From: Trichodelitschia bisporula
Lineage: Eukaryota
Direction: 5' to 3'
Length of the DNA stretch: 54,678 bases
NCBI GenBank assembly: GCA_010356995.1
Contig: ML996694.1
Coordinates: forward strand, 1,115,224 to 1,169,901
The notes under the pieces are model-generated. The model was given only the letters and a program-made list of their open reading frames with translations, did no database searches and had not been told where the DNA came from. Below are positions 13,478-22,056 of this stretch, piece by piece; within the stretch, counting starts at the first letter, position 1; each line of letters opens with the position of its first letter. The position numbers and the translations under genes were made by a program.

Positions 13478-16400
13478 ATGAACTTCGGCTTCAGTAACTA
13501 CGATGATTCGGCTGCTCGCACAGGTGTGCCACTTCCGGGTCAAGGTCGGAGAAACAGTCACCAGTACGAAGACATAGCCACGCCAGATGAGCAGCGGGGC
13601 TTGCACCGGACGACGACATCCCAATCTCACGCGCATCGCCCCACCACAGCCACAGCCCCTGAAAGTTCCGCTGAGAAGTCCGACTTGAAGGAGGACATCA
13701 GTACGAAAAAGGACGATGACGATGCCAGCACGGACGAGGAGGACGAGAAGCGCGATCACCGAATCCAGGAACTAGCGCGTCAATTGACGCGCCAGTCGTC
13801 ATTCTCCGTGGCCGGAGATGTCAACCCCTTCAATGCCAAAGAAGACTCACGCGTCAACCCTCAGTCACCCAATTTCTCGGGAAAGACGTGGGCCAAAGCT
13901 GTCCTGCGCACGATTGAGCAGGATCCGAACTCGGGCCCTCTGCGTACTGCTGGTGTCGCATTCCGGAATCTGAATGCGTACGGCTTCGGCACGGCCACCG
14001 ACTACCAGAAGACGGTTGGCAACATTGTGCTCCAGGGTGTCGGGATTGTGCGCCAGCTCTTCGGCTTCGGCAAGCGCCGTATCGATATCCTGCGGGATTT
14101 CGAGGGTGTTGTGTACGCGGGCGAGATGCTGGTGGTGCTCGGCCCCCCTGGTTCAGGGTGCTCTACCTTCTTGAAGGTGCTTGCCGGAGAGACTGACGGC
14201 CTGAACGTGGACGAGAACTCGTACCTGAACTATCAAGGTACGTTGATATCACATGATGCGCGCGAGCGCCATTGCCGTGCGCCATTGCTGACATGAGGTG
14301 AAACAGGCATCAGCGCAAACCAAATGCATAAGTATTTCCGTGGTGAGGCTATCTATACGGCCGAAGTCGACGTTCACTTTCCCATGATGACCGTCGGCGA
14401 CACCTTGAGCTTTGCTGCGCGCGCCCGCGCTCCGCGCATCCCCCCTGGCGGCGTGACTAAGGAGGTCTTTGCCGACCACATGCGTGACGTCGTCATGGCC
14501 ATGTACGGCATTTCGCACACGAACAACACCATGGTTGGCAACGACTTCATCCGCGGTGTCTCCGGTGGTGAGCGCAAGCGCGTGACAATCGCCGAGGCCA
14601 CCCTTTCCCAGGCCCCGCTGCAGTGCTGGGACAACTCGACGCGTGGTCTCGACAGTGCCAACGCTCTTGAGTTCTGCCGGACGCTGCGGATCTCCGCCGA
14701 CGTGATGGGCTCTACCGCTTGCTTGGCCATCTACCAAGCATCGCAGGCCGCGTACGACGTGTTCGACAAGGTCATCGTTCTGTACGAGGGCTATCAGATC
14801 TACTTCGGCCCCTCGCGTGCGGCCAAGCAGTACTTCCTGGACCTGGGCTTTGACTGCCCCGATCGCCAGACCGTGGCTGATTTCTTGACGTCGATGACCA
14901 GCGCCGCCGAGCGTGTTGTGCGTCCGGGATGGGAGAACAGGGTGCCCCGCACAGCGGCAGAATTTGCCCAGAAGTGGAAGGAGTCGGAAACGCGCAAGGC
15001 GCTCCTCGTTGAGATCGACGAGTACGACAAGAAGTACCAGATTGGCGGCGAGTACCTGGAGAAGTTCAAGGTGTCGCGCAAGGCTCAGCAGGCTCGGTCG
15101 CAGCGCATCAAATCGCCTTACACGCTGTCGTATCGCGAGCAGGTCGGACTGTGCTTGTGGCGCGGCTTCGTGCGGCTCAAGGGTGATCCCAGCCTTACGT
15201 TCTCGCAACTGTTCGCCAACTGCATCATGGCTCTTATCGTCGGCAGTGTCTTTTACAACATGAAGCAGGATACGGCCAGCTTCTACTCGCGCGGTGCTCT
15301 GCTTTTCTTCGCCATTTTGCTCAATGCCTTTGGCAGTGCTCTCGAGGTATGTGCGTGCCTTCCCACCTCGAGCCTATTCTAACGTGCCAGATTCTTACGC
15401 TTTATGCGCAACGACCCATCGTCGAGAAGCATTCCCGCTACGCCTTTTACCATCCGTCCGCCGAAGCCTTCGCCAGCATGTTAACTGATATGCCGTACAA
15501 GATTGCGAATGCCATATTTTTCAATCTTGTGCTGTACTTCATGACCAATCTGCGACGTGAACCGGGAGCCTTCTTCTTCTTCCTGCTGGTTTCGTTCACC
15601 CTGACGTTGACCATGTCCATGTTCTTCCGAACACTCGCATCCGTCTCTCGAACTCTGTCCCAAGCCATGGTTCCCGCCGCTATCCTCATCCTCGCCATCG
15701 TCATCTTCACCGGTTTCGCCATTCCAACGCGGTACATGTTAGGCTGGTCACGCTGGATCAATTACTTGGATCCCGTTGCGTATGGCTTCGAATCGCTCCT
15801 GATCAACGAGTTTCATGGTCGCAACTTCACCTGCTCCACCTTTGTGCCAACCGGTCCTGGTTACGGCAGTGCGGCTGGGTTGAACCATGTCTGCACTGCC
15901 GTCGGCTCCAAGGCTGGGCTGTCAGTTGTGACTGGCACTGACTACATCGTTTCATCCTTCAACTACTCCCCGTCGAACAAATGGAGAAATTATGGCATCC
16001 TCATCGCATTCATGCTCTTCCTCATGGCTACCTACTTAGGCGCTGTCGAGTTGATCTCTGGGAAGAAGTCGAAGGGCGAAGTCTTGGTGTTCCGGCGTGG
16101 CCACACCCCCGCCGCTCTGAAGCACGCCGACCGGCCTCGGTCGAAGGAGGACCTGGAAGCTGGCACCCCGCCTAGTACAGCTCTGTTGCAACCCGGCGGG
16201 CTGCAACCGCCTGCCAGTGGTGCTAACAGCCCGAAGGCTCAATCGATCCTGAAGCAGTCATCCGTCTTCTCGTGGCGCAACGTCTGCTACGACATCAAGA
16301 TCAAGAAGGAACCGCGCCGCATCCTTGACAATGTTGACGGTTGGGTCAAGCCTGGCACGCTGACTGCGCTCATGGGCGTCTCTGGTGCCGGGAAGACTAC

Positions 16401-18216
16401 TCTCCTCGATGTCCTGGCTTCGCGTGTCACGATGGGTGTTATCACCGGCGACATGTTGGTTGACGGCCGCCCACGCGATGCGTCTTTCCAGCGCAAGACC
16501 GGCTACGTGCAGCAGCAGGATCTCCACCTTTCCACGTCTACCGTCCGCGAGGCGCTCAACTTCAGCGCCCTGCTCCGCCAGCCTGCGAACATTTCGCGCA
16601 AGGAAAAGCTCGAGTATGTCGATGAGGTGATTAAGCTGCTGGAAATGGAGGAGTATGCCGACGCCGTTGTCGGTGTGCCTGGCGAGGGCCTGAACGTTGA
16701 GCAGCGCAAGCGCCTCACCATCGGCGTCGAACTTGCCGCGAAGCCCCAACTGCTACTCTTCCTCGACGAGCCGACTTCCGGCCTGGATTCGCAGACGTCC
16801 TGGGCCATTTGCAATCTCATGGAGAAGCTTACCAACAGCGGCCAGGCCATTCTGTGCACCATCCACCAGCCGTCCGCCATGTTGTTCCAGCGCTTCGACC
16901 GCCTGCTGTTCCTCAAGAGCGGCGGCCAGACCGTGTACTTTGGCGAGATCGGCAAGAACTCCTCGATCCTGACGGCGTACTTTGAGCGGAACGGCGCGGC
17001 GCCCTGCCCGCCTGATGCTAACCCCGCTGAGTGGATGCTCGAGGTCATTGGTGCAGCGCCCGGATCCAAAACTGATATCGACTGGACGGCGACGTGGCGT
17101 GGTAGCCCTGAGTATGCTGAGATCCAAAGGGAACTGGACCAGATCAATGCGGAGCGTCTCGCGGCGACGGCTGACCAGACTGATGAGGCTAACAAGAGCG
17201 CGTACCGCGAGTTTGCGGCGACTTTCCCGACTCAACTGTGGGAAGTGCAGAAGCGTGTCTTTGAGCAGTACTGGCGTACGCCGAGCTACATCTATTCCAA
17301 GATGGCGCTCTGCTTGTTCTCGTCCCTCTTCATTGGCTTTGCCTTCTTCAATACGCCTCTCAGCCAACAAGGTCTCCAGAATCAGATGTTCGCCATCTTC
17401 ACGCTCCTCACCATCTTCGGCCAGCTCGTCCAGCAAATCATGCCTCACTTCGTCACCCAGCGCGCCCTTTACGAGGTGCGCGAGCGCCCGTCCAAGACGT
17501 ACTCGTGGAAGGCCTTCATGCTGTGCAACATCATGGTCGAGCTGCCCTGGCAGACACTGATGGCCGCCATCATGTACTTCTGCTGGTACTATCCGATCGG
17601 GATGTACAAGAACGCGATGCCTACGGACGCGGTCACATCGCGTGGCGCGCTGATGTTCCTGCTCATCTGGGTGTTCATGATCTTCACGTCGACCTTTACG
17701 CACATGTGCATCGCAGCGATTGAGACGGCGGAGACGGGTGGCAACATTGCGCAGCTGCTTTTCTCCCTGTCGCTCATCTTCTGCGGTGTGCTTGCTGGCC
17801 CGTCGTCCCTGCCTGGCTTCTGGATCTTCATGTACCGCGTCTCGCCGTTCACGTACCTCGTCTCGGCCGTCCTGTCGACTGGGCTGGCGAACACCAATGT
17901 GCACTGCGCCTCCAACGAGTACCTCCACTTCAAGCCCCCGAACGGCTCAACCTGCGGCGAGTACATGGATCCGTACATCAAGTTCGCGAGCGGTTATCTG
18001 CTGGACCGGGAGGCGACGGACGACTGCAGCTTCTGCGCCATCAGCAGTACCAACACCTTCCTTGCCGCGGTCAGCTCGGACTTCAATGACCGGTGGCGGA
18101 ACTTTGGAATTATGTGGGTGTATGTGGCATTCAATACGGCGGCGGCGCTGTTCTTCTACTGGTACTTCCGGATGCCCAAGGGGGAGCGCAAGGAGAAGAA
18201 GAAGAAGGCGGAGTAA
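13478..18216 (+). CDS. Full-size pleiotropic drug resistance ABC transporter (ABCG; Pdr5/Cdr1/AbcG1-like)
   Basis: NBD1 [18 protein letters not shown] and CWD (degenerate PDR site); NBD2 [16 protein letters not shown] and LDEPTSGLD; two TMDs. Introns 14238-14306 and 15347-15390. Confidence 0.96.
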
Positions 18217-18680
18217 ACATAATGTGTTGGTAGATCACTAGACGACCTTTCTGTGTGTTTTCTTTAGGTATTGGCTCATCTCTCCAAGCTTGCACCTTGT
18301 CGGCTGTTTGAGCGGGGGCTTGTCATAGAATTTAGACTTGTAGGAATATATAATCATCTAGACACACTTTCGCTTCAACGCTCTGCTTGTGCTGCTCCCT
18401 CTAGGTATTCTGATATCTGGATATATGACCGCGTGGGGAAAGACTCGAGAATCTCGACCAAGACGGCTAGCGGCGGGCACGCGGGGCTTGAATTTGCATG
18501 TGAGTGGGGCAAGCCAGGACCCTAAACACACTACGGTACCGACCCACTGGGCATCACACACGCCTAGTCGCGGGGCGCGTCAAAACTTCCAATCCTTTTT
18601 TTCTCTCTTCCCCTCCCCCTAGCATTTTCATTGCTAGGGCGGCACTTCAACACCACAAATACTCGCATCAATCCGCAATC

Positions 18681-20672
18681 ATGAAATACGTATTAGTGTC
18701 TGGAGGTATCTACCGGTACAATTTTTACACAGGCGCCAGCTAACCCCGCTACTTAGGTGTGATCAGCGGTGTGGGCAAGGGCATAATCGGTACGCCTGTT
18801 GTCTAGAATTTCTGAGCCGTCTAACTCGCGTCAACAGCTTCGTCCACGGGCCTGCTGCTCAAGACCATCGGGCTTAAGATACGTACTCCGGCTCTTCGCG
18901 TGCTTCCCCGCTAACAGTCACACGTCTCATCGATCAAGGTCGACCCATACCTCAATGTCGATGCGGGGACTATGAACCCAAAAGAGTGCGTCTGATGGGC
19001 CCACCTTATAGCGACGCTGACCCAATAGGCATGGCGAAGTCTTTGTCCTCGACGACGGCGGCGAAGTCGACCTCGATCTCGGCAACTACGAGCGGTATCT
19101 CAACGTCACGCTGACACGCGACAACAACATAACGACGGGCAAGATATATAAGCACGTTATTGAGCGGGAGCGCAAGGGCGATTACCTGGGCCGCACGGTG
19201 CAGGTGGTGCCGCATGTCACGGACGCGATTCAGGAGTGGATCGAGCGCGTGGCGAAGATTCCGGTGGATGATACGGGCGAGGAGCCGGATGTCTGCATCA
19301 TCGAGCTTGGTGGCACGGTTGGCGATATCGAGAGCATGCCCTTTGTTGAGGCTATGACGCAGCTGCGGCGCCGTGCGGGCAAGGGCAACTTTCTCCAGAT
19401 CCATGTTTCGTACATTCCGGTCATTCATGGGGAGCAGAAGACGAAGCCCACGCAGCAGGCCATTCGTGGTGTGCGCAGTGCGGGTCTCATTCCGGATCTG
19501 GTGGGTCGCCTTGCATGATTCCCGAAGACACCGCTGACCGATAGATTGCGTGCCGCTGCGAAATGGAGCTCGAGAAGAGCACGGTTGAGAAAATCGCACA
19601 CTTTTGTCAGGTCGACGTAGAGCAAGTCATCGTCGTCCGGGACATGCCCTCTATCTACCAGGTGCCGGTCCTCCTGGAGGAACAGGGCCTCATCCCTTTG
19701 CTCAAGCAGGGGCTGCAGCTCGACGCCACCATCGAGCCTGACATGCTCACCCGCGGCAAGCACATCTGGCAGCAATGGAGGACCCTAACCACGCCGAACC
19801 AAAACTTCTACGAGCCACTCTCCATCGCGCTGGTCGGGAAGTACACCACCTTCCACGACTCCTACCTCAGCGTGATCAAGGCGCTCGAGCACAGCGCTAT
19901 GCGCTGCCGCCGCCGCCTCACCATTATGTGGGTGGACAGCGAGCACCTCGAGCCTGCGGCCCAGGAGACGGATCCCGCGAAGTACCACAAGGCGTGGCAT
20001 AACGTGTGCACTGCGGACGGGATTCTCGTCCCCGGCGGCTTCGGCGACCGCGGCACCGAGGGCATGATTGCCGCCGCCCGCTGGGCCCGTGAGAATAAGC
20101 GCCCCTACTTGGGTATCTGCCTCGGGATGCAGATTGCAGTGATTGAGTTCGCGCGCAATGTTGTTGGGATGGCGGGGGCTACGTCGGAGGAGTTTGTGGC
20201 CAAGGATGCCGAAGGGAAACCTGCCGCGAAGACCGATCAACTGGCCATCGTCTTCATGCCTGAAATCGACAAGACGACTATGGGCGGCACGATGCGCCTC
20301 GGCCGCCGGCCGACGCACTTCCAGCCCGGCAGCGAGTGGAGCAAGCTGCGCGCGCTGTACGGCGGGAAGGAAACGATTGACGAGCGGCACCGGCACAGAT
20401 ACGAAGTCAACCCCGAGGTTATTGCGCGGCTGCAGGAGAAGGGGCTGGCGTTTGTGGGGAAGGATGATAGTGGGGTGCGGATGGAGGTTGTGGAGCTGGC
20501 GAAGGAGGTGGAGCATCCGTGGTTTGTGGGCGTCCAATTTCACCCTGAGTATTTGAGCCGCGTGCTGGAGCCGAGCCGCCCGTATTTGGGGTTTGTGGCG
20601 GCGAGTGCGGGGGTTCTGGCGGAGGTTACGGAGAGTGTTGGGGGACGGGCGGAGGTTAATGGGCATTTTTAG
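18681..20672 (+). CDS. URA7: CTP synthase
   Basis: [68 protein letters not shown] and QFHPE. Introns 18706-18756, 18790-18837, 18879-18923 (AT-AC), 18986-19028 and 19501-19544. Confidence 0.97.
18879..18923 (+). other. Non-canonical AT-AC spliceosomal intron (U2-type signals) in URA7
   Basis: Exon ...GGG CTT AAG | ATACGT...GCTAAC AGTCACAC | GTC TCA TCG ATC AAG restores [12 protein letters not shown]. Retention gives an in-frame TAA, and I found no GT/GC-AG pair that keeps the frame. Confidence 0.8.
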
Positions 20673-20868
20673 GGAGTCTGGGGGGATATGCGGTATCTGG
20701 CCAAGGGTGCTAAGATATACTGGGGATATAAAGTGGGATAGAGGGAATGTATCATGGCGTTATGGCATGAGGGAGTGATTGCTGTTTGCAAGTGAGGTTC
20801 CGATGTGATGCTCCAGACCGACGACACGGCGTTATCATCCGCCTACATCTGCCTCCCTACACACCCGC

Positions 20869-22056
20869 CTAATACCCCGTAACCGGCTTCGGCAAATACG
20901 CATCCTCAAGATACTTCACATCCCCCTCCCCCAACCTAACCCTAACATTCTCCACCGCCTCATCAATCCTCATCCTACTATTCAACCCAAGAATAGGCAC
21001 ACACCCCTTACCCAGCACCCACGCCGTCGCCACCGCCGCCATACTAACTCCCTTCCGGCGTGCTACCTCCTCCACGCGATTCACAATCGCAGCATCGACG
21101 TCCGTTTCCCTCGCCCTTATCAAGCCCACCAAGAACGCATCCGTTGTTTCGCGTTTCGAATCGCGGCTGCCCCAGGGCCGGGCGAGCACTCCGCGCGCGA
21201 GGGGAGACCAGGGTATGAGCCCGACGCCTGTGGCACGGCAGTAGGGCAGCATTTCGCGCTCCTCCTCGCGGTAGAGCAGGTTGTAGTAGGGCTGCATGCT
21301 TATGAAGCGGTGCCAGTTGCGCTGCGTGGCTATGGTTTGGAGGAGTTGGAATTCCCAGGCTGCCATCTAGGCGGGGAGGGAGGGGGGAGGGGACGTTAGC
21401 CGAGTCGCCCTGGGGGAGAAAGGGGAAGGGTGATGGGGAGGGTATATGAGAGGGAAAGGGAAACGCACCGAGCTGGCCCCGATGTACCGCACCATCCCGC
21501 TCTCAACCACGTCGTTGAGCGCGCGCATGATTTCCTCCCCCGGGGTGTCGCGGTCGAGGCGGTGCACTTGCAGGACGTCGATATATGTCCCCAGACGCTT
21601 GGTACTCGCTTCCACCGCATCGAAGATGTGTTTCCTGGATAACCCGACTCTATTAACCCACACCCCGTCATTAGCCGCCAGCGCCGCAATCGGCGGCTGG
21701 TTACCACTCCCATCAACGCCAAAGAAGAGTTTCGTCATGATAACCACCCCTTGCCGGGGGATTTCGTACGTGCGCAGCGCTTTGCCGATGATTTCCTCGG
21801 AGCGGCCGTTGGAGTACGTGTCGGCGGTGTCCCAGGTGTTGATTCCCCGCTCGAAGGCGTGTTTGAGGAGCGGGAGGGCTTCGTCTTCGTTTAGCACCCA
21901 GTGTTGCCAGTCGCTGGAGCCGTAGGACATGCAGCCGAGGATGATTTTGGAGATCTTCAAACCCGAGTTTCCGAGACTGCTCACATATCAGCTCCATTCC
22001 ACCGCAGCATCATGAACCGAGCAAGATGGGAGAGAAGCATACTTAACATACTCCAT
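20869..22056 (-). CDS. Aldo-keto reductase (aryl-alcohol dehydrogenase-like)
   Basis: MEYVN|LGNSGLKISKIILGCMSYG, WDTADTYSNG, YIDVLQVHR, YIGASS|MAAWEF and PWSPLARG. Introns 22042-21977 and 21468-21367. The upstream frame is open, so the start codon is uncertain. Confidence 0.9.

What the first reader, a model, noticed from the sequence alone, without database searches (positions are those of the whole stretch)
18879..18923. Obligatory AT-AC intron with U2-type signals in CTP synthase (URA7)
Seen: the conserved [12 protein letters not shown] peptide is interrupted by 45 nt that start ATACGT and end CACAC, with a normal GCTAAC branch point. Read-through hits an in-frame TAA. The nearby GT (GTACTC) paired with the AG at 18916-17 frameshifts. 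ATACGT...CAC is a standard fungal GTACGT...CAG intron with both terminal Gs changed. Established: first-base G>A and last-base G>C mutations suppress each other in the yeast major spliceosome. U12 introns need ATATCCTT/TTCCTTAAC, which are absent here, and Pezizomycotina are not known to keep the minor spliceosome. Inference: a natural U2-spliced AT-AC intron in a core pyrimidine enzyme, possibly a rate-limiting or NMD-coupled control point for CTP synthase. An AT-AG event at 18917 would instead insert Ser-His in frame.
Basis: partly seen in the sequence, partly recalled or inferred. Interest (0 to 1): 0.8.

Follow-up and report, generated by a model that had tools for sequence, protein, structure and literature searches.

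The report
Ancient AT-AC intron in fungal CTP synthase
A 45-base intron in a fungal CTP synthase gene starts with AT and ends with AC instead of the usual GT and AG, is cut out exactly in RNA, and sits at the same place in many related fungi, where it often spoils automatic gene predictions.

Summary
Window 18879-18923 is a 45-nt intron, ATACGT...GCTAAC...CAC, between codons K33 and V34 of a six-exon CTP synthase gene. A transcript-derived contig from another sample joins 18878 to 18924 exactly, with ends AT..AC and no positional ambiguity, and also lacks the four GT-AG introns. The 586-aa product equals the public protein named for Trichodelitschia bisporula, so this junction is already in the annotation.

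The signals are U2-type, not U12-type. All 11 orthologous introns read ATANGT and have a CTRAY branch site 9-12 nt from the 3' end. None has TCCTTRAY. Papers report no minor spliceosome in Ascomycota.

New here: the AT-AC state is old.
- 10 of 10 related metagenome contigs with an intron at this site are AT-AC.
- Mis-modelled public proteins show I after exon 3 (12 of 12) and H, Y or N before exon 4 (25 of 25), including Pezizomycetes and Eurotiomycetes.
- One Lecanorales-like contig has GT-AG at the same site, and a Teratosphaeria-like group has lost the intron.

A Botrytis fabae paper already lists CTP synthase among genes with non-canonical introns. A regulatory role remains untested. This is a new member of a known kind, of moderate interest.

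The parts
18681..20672 (+). CTP synthase (URA7-type) coding region, ATG to stop, six exons
   Evidence: gene model; the product is identical to public protein P0001 (586 aa). Pfam PF06418 and PF00117. E 1e-235 to the chain 'CTP synthase' of PDB entry 7rmo.
18573..20800 (+). Stretch covered by the spliced transcript contig of run X3; the contig runs on past 20800
   Evidence: table 8, record 3: 3075 letters in six pieces with 0 other letters.
18681..18705 (+). exon 1
18706..18756 (+). intron 1, GT-AG, 51 nt
   Evidence: joint skips 51.
18757..18789 (+). exon 2
18790..18837 (+). intron 2, GT-AG, 48 nt
   Evidence: joint skips 48.
18838..18878 (+). exon 3, ending ...GGG CTT AAG (G L K)
18879..18923 (+). 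intron 3, AT-AC, 45 nt, phase 0: the finding
   Evidence: sequence; joint 18878->18924, ends AT..AC, both = 0.
18879..18884 (+). 5' splice site ATACGT, the U2-type hexamer GTACGT with A at +1
   Evidence: ATANGT in 11 of 11 orthologous introns.
18910..18915 (+). Branch-site motif GCTAAC, inferred branch A at 18914, 9 nt before the last intron base; it holds the in-frame TAA
   Evidence: The branch point itself was not mapped.
18921..18923 (+). 3' end CAC, in place of the usual CAG
   Evidence: YAC in 11 of 11 orthologous introns.
18924..18985 (+). exon 4, beginning GTC TCA TCG ATC AAG (V S S I K)
18986..19028 (+). intron 4, GT-AG, 43 nt
   Evidence: seen in X3 and X4.
19029..19500 (+). exon 5
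19501..19544 (+). intron 5, GT-AG, 44 nt
   Evidence: seen in X3 and X4.
19545..20672 (+). exon 6, including the stop codon

Best explanation
Window 18879-18923 is a genuine spliceosomal intron of the CTP synthase gene. Its first and last bases are A and C instead of G and G, and everything else about it is an ordinary, near-consensus short fungal intron. It is most likely removed by the major (U2-dependent) spliceosome. U1 and U6 would read the ATACGT 5' site through positions +2 to +6. U2 would read GCTAAC. In the second step the usual G(+1)-G(-1) contact between the intron ends would be replaced by the compatible A(+1)-C(-1) contact, which is why an AC rather than a nearby AG serves as the 3' site. 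Shown: the sequence, the exact excision in RNA, and the same AT-AC ends at this site in fungi close to Dothideomycetes, Chaetothyriales, Helotiales and lichen-forming lineages. Inferred from gene-model artefacts: the same ends in Pezizomycetes, Onygenales, Geoglossomycetes and Lichinomycetes, so the state goes back to early Pezizomycotina. Inferred: dependence on the major spliceosome and the A-C contact. The AT-AC state probably persists because it is hard to leave, since each single change (GT-AC or AT-AG) should splice poorly, and not because it serves a purpose. The ways out seen here are intron loss (Teratosphaeria-like contigs) and one switch to GT-AG (a Lecanorales-like contig). The unusually strong remaining signals look like compensation for the weak ends.
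For: -: X3 contig joins 18878->18924, skipping 45 nt, ends AT..AC, no ambiguity. The same contig lacks the other four introns, so it derives from RNA. DNA contigs X1 and X2 are identical to the window.
- the spliced product equals public protein P0001.
- gapless alignment to the solved chain of 7rmo across residues 1-102, including K33|V34.
- of 80 metagenome loci, 10 have an intron between the K and V codons. All 10 start ATA[T/C/A]GT and end [C/T]AC.
- in the same genes 41 of 42 neighbouring introns are GT-AG and 1 is GC-AG. A3+G5+T6 is found in 11 of 11 AT-AC introns against 8 of 42 neighbours (Fisher p about 1e-6; the sequences are related, so this overstates the case). A CTRAY motif lies 9-12 nt from the 3' end in 11 of 11. 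TCCTTRAY is found in 0 of 11. Matches to ATATCCTTT are 3-7 of 9.
-, 304 public proteins: 12 of 12 models that run on past exon 3 continue with I (an ATH codon). 25 of 25 models that enter exon 4 from the wrong upstream sequence have H (18), Y (5) or N (2) before V, all NAY codons. None has Q, K or E, the NAG codons.
- these models include Rhizina and Trichophaea (Pezizomycetes), Microsporum, Trichophyton and Arthroderma, Lasallia, Phylliscum and Geoglossum.
- L020, nearest named Lecanora helva at 71%, has GTAAAT...CCAG at the same phase-0 site.
- intron-less L008, L009, L012 and L014 are nearest Teratosphaeria, Cryoendolithus and Oleoguttula.
- Papers, passages read: no minor introns or snRNAs in Ascomycota (PMC10639083; PMC2846911). 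G1A is rescued by a last-base G-to-C change in yeast and human introns, and animal U2-type AT-AC introns have a strong ATAAGT-like 5' site (PMC1557818; PMC5029451).
Against: - No experiment here shows which spliceosome acts.
- This organism's genome could not be searched for U11, U12, U4atac or U6atac. Rfam on the window alone found nothing, which says nothing about the rest of the genome.
- RNA evidence is one contig from one run (X3). Contigs cannot show how efficient the splicing is, nor rule out minor isoforms.
- The second RNA-like run's contig (X4) starts exactly at 18924 and does not bridge the junction.
- The wide taxonomic reach rests partly on artefacts in other people's gene models, not on DNA that I saw.
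- The 11 sequenced introns are about 8 independent lineages (L003, L006 and L028 are alike, as are L010 and L011).
- The GT-AG intron in L020 shows that the AT-AC state can be left, which weakens a strict trap.
- Long conservation together with stronger-than-average signals would also fit selection for a function.
Confidence: 0.85

Rival explanations
1. The AT-AC ends are kept by selection because they make intron 3 a slow or conditional splicing step. On this view unspliced RNA carries a premature stop and is degraded, so the intron sets or regulates CTP synthase output. This is the first reader's suggestion, and it can be true alongside the main explanation.
For: - AT-AC is kept in all 10 related contigs that have the intron and is inferred across the subphylum.
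- The other signals are tighter than in neighbouring introns.
- Retention gives a stop in the window, and an in-frame stop or a frameshift in all 11 orthologous introns.
- The X4 contig breaks exactly at the exon 4 boundary, as an assembly graph would where two RNA forms meet. This is only a hint.
Against: - No measurement of retention or of any condition-dependence was possible.
- Intron length (45-69 nt) and interior sequence are not conserved.
- The intron has been lost outright in one group and switched to GT-AG in another, so it is dispensable there.
- Any retained intron would give a premature stop.
- The Botrytis fabae authors saw no special role for genes with such introns (passage read).
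Confidence: 0.12
2. It is a U12-type (minor spliceosome) AT-AC intron.
For: The ends are AT-AC. 7 of 11 orthologous introns start ATAT. The branch motif lies close to the 3' end, 9-12 nt.
Against: - No intron has CC at +5 and +6.
- TCCTTRAY is found in 0 of 11.
- Neighbouring ordinary introns have equally short branch-to-3' distances, 7-18 nt.
- Two surveys find no minor introns or minor snRNAs in Ascomycota.
Confidence: 0.03
3. It descends from a U12-type AT-AC intron of an early fungus. On this view it survived the loss of the minor spliceosome in Dikarya by acquiring U2-type internal signals while keeping its AT-AC ends.
For: Only circumstantial. The state is ancient in Pezizomycotina. ATAT starts the intron in 7 of 11. 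The terminal dinucleotides are the hardest part to change.
Against: - The six loci that lie at most 67% from all named Pezizomycotina (L015-L019) or are Lecanorales-like (L020) gave no AT-AC intron at the site. L016, L017 and L018 have no intron there, L020 has GT-AG, and L015 and L019 stayed unresolved.
- 25 other loci of 65-70% identity have a contiguous junction.
- A search for CTPS1 with U12-type found nothing relevant.
- An origin from GT-AG by two changes is equally possible.
Confidence: 0.08
4. The AT and AC are sequencing or assembly errors, or the gene is a dead copy.
For: None beyond the rarity of such introns.
Against: - The same letters appear in two DNA-run contigs, though these may be the source.
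- The same ends appear in 10 independent contigs.
- The spliced RNA contig encodes an intact enzyme.
Confidence: 0.01

Closest known systems
U2-type ('type II') AT-AC introns of animals, such as human SCN4A and SCN5A (Sheth et al. 2006, PMC1557818, passages read; experimental papers cited there not read)
   Same: AT-AC ends joined to an otherwise strong U2-type 5' site (ATAAGT-like). Rare. Ends conserved between distant species.
   Different: Those are long animal introns with polypyrimidine tracts. This one is a 45-nt fungal intron with a CTRAY branch site 9 nt from the 3' end, in an organism with no second spliceosome to confuse the issue. U2 dependence was shown by experiment for SCN4A and SCN5A, not here.
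Engineered yeast introns in which G1A is rescued by changing the last G to C (Parker and Siliciano 1993; cited in PMC5029451 and PMC1557818; original not read)
   Same: The same pair of end changes on an otherwise normal U2-type intron. This gives the mechanistic reason an AC 3' end goes with an AT 5' end.
   Different: Those are laboratory mutants that splice less efficiently. This is a natural intron in an essential-pathway gene, kept over a whole subphylum.
Botrytis fabae genes with RNA-seq-supported non-canonical introns (PMC10971195, section 3.7 passage read)
   Same: CTP synthase is named among the 16 genes. Six non-canonical 5' borders share ATANGT, the very pattern found here. Botrytis is a Pezizomycotina fungus (class recalled, not looked up).
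   Different: The paper gives no mechanism, no conservation analysis and no role. Its Table S10, which would state the borders of the CTP synthase intron, could not be read, so identity with this intron is likely but unconfirmed.
Nested AT-AC intron in S. cerevisiae RPL30 (Qin et al. 2016, PMC5029451, passages read)
   Same: A natural AT-AC junction in a fungus that lacks the minor spliceosome.
   Different: That one is used in about 1-2% of transcripts, is non-productive, and its 5' site does not resemble U2-type AT-AC introns. This one is the only productive junction and has a consensus-like 5' site.
U12-type AT-AC introns (Sheth 2006; Larue et al. 2023, PMC10639083)
   Same: The terminal dinucleotides, and a branch site close to the 3' end.
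   Different: It lacks ATATCCTT and TCCTTRAY, and the host phylum lacks the machinery.

Membership tests
U2-type (type II) AT-AC intron | Intron begins AT and ends AC | tested here: met
   The joint reports ends AT..AC with no positional ambiguity.
U2-type (type II) AT-AC intron | The rest of the 5' site matches the U2-type consensus except at +1 (criterion of Sheth 2006) | tested here: met
   ATACGT here and ATANGT in 11 of 11 orthologous introns. No position-weight score was computed.
U2-type (type II) AT-AC intron | Excised precisely from RNA | tested here: met
   one contig of one run (X3).
U2-type (type II) AT-AC intron | Splicing depends on U1, U2, U4 and U6, not on U11, U12, U4atac and U6atac | not testable with these tools
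   Inferred from the motifs and from papers on Ascomycota.
U12-type AT-AC intron | 5' site ATATCCTT | tested here: not met
   4 of 9 matches to ATATCCTTT in the window and 3-7 of 9 in the orthologues. None has CC at +5 and +6.
U12-type AT-AC intron | Branch-site motif TCCTTRAY near the 3' end | tested here: not met
   0 of 11.
U12-type AT-AC intron | The organism encodes the minor snRNAs | not testable with these tools
   No genome is held. The window alone has no Rfam match. The literature reports absence in Ascomycota.
CTP synthase (URA7 / PyrG type) | N-terminal synthetase domain plus class-I glutamine amidotransferase domain | tested here: met
   PF06418, 400.6 bits, residues 2-270; PF00117, 129.4 bits, residues 315-554.
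CTP synthase (URA7 / PyrG type) | Full-length likeness to enzymes of solved structure, unbroken across the exon 3/4 junction | tested here: met
   E 1e-235 to 7rmo. Residues 1-102 align without a gap.
CTP synthase (URA7 / PyrG type) | Enzyme activity | not testable with these tools
   Not assayed.

The most novel reading that the evidence does not exclude
The AT-AC ends of this intron have been held for the whole history of Pezizomycotina because they serve a purpose: a deliberately inefficient second splicing step that gates CTP synthase output, with unspliced RNA removed by nonsense-mediated decay. A related bold reading is that the intron is a fossil of a U12-type intron that outlived the minor spliceosome in Dikarya.
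Probability: 0.12. Interest if true: 0.75.

Novelty: new member of a known kind. Interest (0 to 1): 0.45.

Why it matters
U2-type AT-AC introns are very rare. Sheth et al. counted 24 among about 600,000 introns of five animal and plant genomes. They have mostly been studied in animals, where the minor spliceosome complicates the picture.

This case is a natural, obligatory one in a housekeeping gene of fungi that have only the major spliceosome. It appears to be kept across a subphylum, with one lineage that switched to GT-AG and another that lost the intron. That offers a clean natural system for asking two things: how the first and last intron bases choose each other, and how hard a paired change is to reverse in evolution.

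The practical consequence is immediate. Gene predictors that allow only GT-AG or GC-AG mis-model the start of this gene. Of 304 public proteins examined, 37 models (32 distinct proteins, since five show both marks) carry run-on or foreign residues at this junction, and 133 lack the region altogether, some only because they are fragments.

Tried and rejected
- **Own genome:** none is held. A second URA7 copy and the minor snRNA genes could therefore not be sought.
- **RNA holders:** no RNA holder was listed by the run search. X3 and X4 were only guessed to be RNA. X3 proved to be transcript-derived because all five introns are missing. X4 has no cover before 18924.
- **Earlier findings of this scan**: nothing relevant.
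- **Paper search 'AT-AC' + 'CTP synthase'**: one hit, on maize, judged irrelevant from its title and abstract.
- **Paper search 'AT-AC' + fungal genera with min_terms 2**: uninformative, because it did not force the AT-AC term.
- **Other 'AT-AC' searches** ('AT-AC' + 'filamentous fungi' + 'intron', 'AT-AC' + 'Aspergillus' + 'splice', 'AT-AC' + 'Pezizomycotina'): no paper describes this intron. Many hits were polyketide 'KS-AT-ACP' strings.
- **Fusarium graminearum:** the two published AT-AC introns are in FGSG_08743 and FGSG_10073, with gene lengths of 210 and 786 nt in the paper's tables. That is too short for CTP synthase. FGSG_10073 appears in no other paper searched.
- **'CTPS1' + 'U12-type'**: nothing relevant.
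- **Table S10 of the Botrytis paper:** unreadable here.
- **Nested-intron (stwintron) reading:** removing the internal GT(18883)...AG(18917) first would leave 10 nt that cannot be spliced out, and the RNA contig shows a single clean joint.
- **Editing of A to I at +1:** this cannot explain the AC 3' end.
- **Rfam on the window:** no match.
Full report
**What is there.** The + strand of window 18681-20672 carries a six-exon CTP synthase gene. Four introns are ordinary GT-AG introns of 51, 48, 43 and 44 nt. The third intron, 18879-18923, is 45 nt. It begins ATACGT, has GCTAAC at 18910-18915 and ends CAC. Removing exactly these 45 nt joins ...GLK to VSSIKVDPY... and gives a 586-aa protein. That protein has both CTP synthase domains. 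It aligns without a gap across the junction to the solved 'CTP synthase' chain of entry 7rmo, E 1e-235. Read-through stops at the TAA inside GCTAAC.

**Is it spliced as predicted?** Four public runs hold the stretch. Two are DNA runs from one sample, which may be the source of the window. Their contigs match the window with no differences. Two runs from another sample and study were only guessed to be RNA.
- The X3 contig (3075 letters) lies on the window in six pieces with all five introns missing, so it derives from transcripts.
- Its third joint runs from 18878 to 18924, skips 45 nt, and has ends AT..AC. It has no letters that could belong to either side and 42 letters on the shorter side.
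- The X4 contig carries the joints of introns 4 and 5 but begins exactly at 18924, so it does not bridge intron 3. This is unexplained. An assembly graph can break where two RNA forms meet, but a contig cannot show that.

**Already annotated.** The best database hit to the last exon is a 586-aa protein that its source names CTP synthase of Trichodelitschia bisporula, at 100% identity. This is a Dothideomycete of the order Phaeotrichales. The protein is identical to my spliced model from first to last residue. The public gene model therefore already uses the AT-AC junction.

**Which spliceosome?** I compared the intron with its orthologues and neighbours. A scan of metagenome contigs with exon 5 returned 80 loci. 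Peptide anchors on both sides of the junction sorted them as follows:

| Result at the K|V boundary | Loci |
|---|---|
| Intron present | 10 (L001-L006, L010, L011, L013, L028; 49-69 nt) |
| Contiguous junction | 25 |
| Unresolved by the patterns | 45 |

Of the 45 unresolved loci, I read four by eye. L016, L017 and L018 are contiguous, and L020 has an intron. All 10 introns found by the anchors start ATA[T/C/A]GT and end [C/T]AC.

In the same genes, 42 neighbouring introns could be delimited. This used the window, L001-L020 and L028; the other 59 loci were not examined for neighbours. Of the 42, 41 are GT-AG and 1 is GC-AG. The comparison:

| Feature | AT-AC introns | Neighbouring introns |
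|---|---|---|
| A at +3, G at +5 and T at +6 together | 11 of 11 | 8 of 42 |
| Distance from the CT[A/G]A[C/T] motif to the intron end | 9-12 nt | 7-18 nt |
| U12 branch motif TCCTTRAY | 0 of 11 | not scored |
| CC at +5 and +6 | 0 of 11 | not scored |

The Fisher p for the first row is about 1e-6. The sequences are related, about 8 independent lineages, so this overstates the case. All 11 AT-AC introns have the CT[A/G]A[C/T] motif.

Passages I read in two surveys report no minor introns and no minor snRNAs in Ascomycota (PMC10639083; PMC2846911). Passages in Sheth et al. 2006 and Qin et al. 2016 make three points:
- A first-base G-to-A change is rescued by a last-base G-to-C change in yeast and human introns.
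- U2-type AT-AC introns are defined by a good U2-type 5' site apart from +1.
- The known animal examples have a strong ATAAGT-like consensus.

The intron here meets that description. Dependence on the major spliceosome is a strong inference, not a demonstration.

**How old is it?** The nearest named proteins place the AT-AC loci as follows:

| Locus | Nearest named relative | Identity |
|---|---|---|
| L001 | Aureobasidium | 98% |
| L002 | Myriangium / Elsinoe | 75% |
| L004 | Rhinocladiella / Exophiala | 81% |
| L005 | Cadophora | 96% |
| L010, L011 | Helotiales-like proteins | 77% |
| L003, L006, L013, L028 | lichen-forming fungi such as Piccolia and Lasallia | 70-84% |

Placements at 70-84% are class-level at best.

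A second line of evidence comes from errors in other people's gene models. I examined 304 CTP synthase proteins returned by three searches (tally).
- 122 have the intact junction.
- 17 more have a contiguous K|V junction. 16 are short open-frame calls starting inside exon 3, and one has an altered upstream part.
- 133 lack both flanking motifs, because they are N-terminally truncated or fragments.
- 12 run on from exon 3 into the intron. All 12 continue with isoleucine, an ATH codon. An intron starting GT would give valine.
- 25 enter exon 4 from the wrong upstream sequence. The residue before V is H in 18, Y in 5 and N in 2. All are NAY codons. None is Q, K or E, as an intron ending in AG would give.
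- Five models fall in both of the last two classes, so these two classes comprise 32 distinct proteins.

These models include Rhizina undulata and Trichophaea hybrida (Pezizomycetes; for Rhizina). They also include Microsporum, Trichophyton, Arthroderma, Ophidiomyces and Exophiala, Lasallia, Phylliscum (Lichinomycetes), and Geoglossum and Glutinoglossum. Classes not looked up here are recalled. I read this as AT-AC at this site in early Pezizomycotina. It remains an inference from artefacts until the DNA is inspected. I have no information on Sordariomycetes beyond intact or truncated models.

**Exits from the AT-AC state.**
- L008, L009, L012 and L014 are nearest to Cryoendolithus, Teratosphaeria and Oleoguttula at 80-84%. 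L008, L009 and L012 have no intron at the site. L014 begins inside exon 4, so its junction was not seen.
- L020's nearest named relatives are Lecanora helva (71%) and Cornicularia (68%), both Lecanoromycetes. It has a 78-nt GT-AG intron, GTAAAT...CCAG, at the same phase-0 boundary.
- The paired ends can therefore be switched, but in this sample that happened once, against about 8 sequenced lineages that kept AT-AC.
- Loci at most 67% identical to all named Pezizomycotina (L015-L019) show no intron there where resolved.

**Mechanism and persistence.** I take the intron to be spliced by the major spliceosome, with the A(+1)-C(-1) contact standing in for G-G at the second step. This would also explain why AG dinucleotides between the branch motif and the AC are not used. 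Such an AG is present in the window at 18916-17 and in several orthologues. The near-consensus remainder looks like compensation for the weak ends, as described for GC-AG and animal AT-AC introns. Persistence is most simply a mutational trap, since either single change should impair the second step. The regulatory idea, slow splicing coupled to decay, is not excluded. Nothing here supports it beyond conservation, and loss and replacement of the intron in two lineages argue that it is dispensable there.

**What is in print.** General surveys note AT-AC junctions in fungal annotations: 0.03% of introns in the SnowyOwl models, and the annotation survey of Frey and Pucker. Sheth et al. mention that some fungal xylanase genes were hypothesised to hold type II AT-AC introns. 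Zhao et al. found two AT-AC introns in Fusarium graminearum, in other genes. One paper comes close. The Botrytis fabae genome paper (PMC10971195, section 3.7 passage) reports 16 genes with RNA-seq-supported non-canonical introns. It names CTP synthase among them and notes that six 5' borders share ATANGT. Its Table S10 could not be read, so I cannot confirm that it is this intron, though that is likely. My searches found no paper that describes its conservation, its effect on gene models or the GT-AG switch. The library lacks most subscription journals.

**Verdict.** The observation and the core interpretation hold. The intron is a new, well-supported and apparently ancient member of the known class of U2-type AT-AC introns. 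It is already used by the public annotation of this species and has probably been noted in passing in Botrytis. Interest is moderate. It is a neat natural system and a recurrent source of annotation error, but not a new kind of mechanism.

Noticed in passing
window 18924 (run X4, table 8): The transcript-like contig of run X4 begins exactly at the first base of exon 4 and has no cover upstream, while X3 bridges the junction. This could be an assembly-graph break where spliced and unspliced forms meet, or chance.
   Followed up: no
window 20800 onward (run X3 record 3): The X3 contig runs about 1078 letters past 20800, beyond the CTP synthase stop at 20672. That takes it into the region of a minus-strand gene (frames 20869-21366 and 21367-21987), which looks by eye like an aldo-keto reductase. 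Convergent transcripts may overlap at their 3' ends. The family was not tested.
   Followed up: no
window 15187-18216 (+): A 1009-aa open frame ends 465 nt upstream of the CTP synthase start. It has ABC-transporter-like motifs by eye (PDR type, recalled). The family was not tested.
   Followed up: no
L020:1100-1530: This Lecanorales-like CTP synthase gene has a GT-AG intron at the K|V site. It also has extra short introns inside what are exons 4 and 5 in the window, one apparently starting GC. The protein carries a Ser/Thr-rich insertion.
   Followed up: partly
L028 intron 1: The first intron of this locus starts GCAAGG and ends with AG. It is the only GC-AG intron among the 42 neighbouring introns scored.
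   Followed up: no
L010 and L011, intron 3: Two nearly identical 56-nt AT-AC introns differ at position +4 (ATATGT against ATAAGT). This fits +4 being the free position of the ATANGT pattern.
   Followed up: no
public proteins P0002-P0304: Many public fungal CTP synthase models start at an internal Met, such as MNPKEHGE, MNVDAGTM or MAPTEHGE, just after this intron or intron 4. This suggests that the tiny 5' exons and the AT-AC intron together defeat gene predictors.
   Followed up: partly
window 1-54678: No Rfam family reaches its gathering score anywhere in the window.
   Followed up: yes
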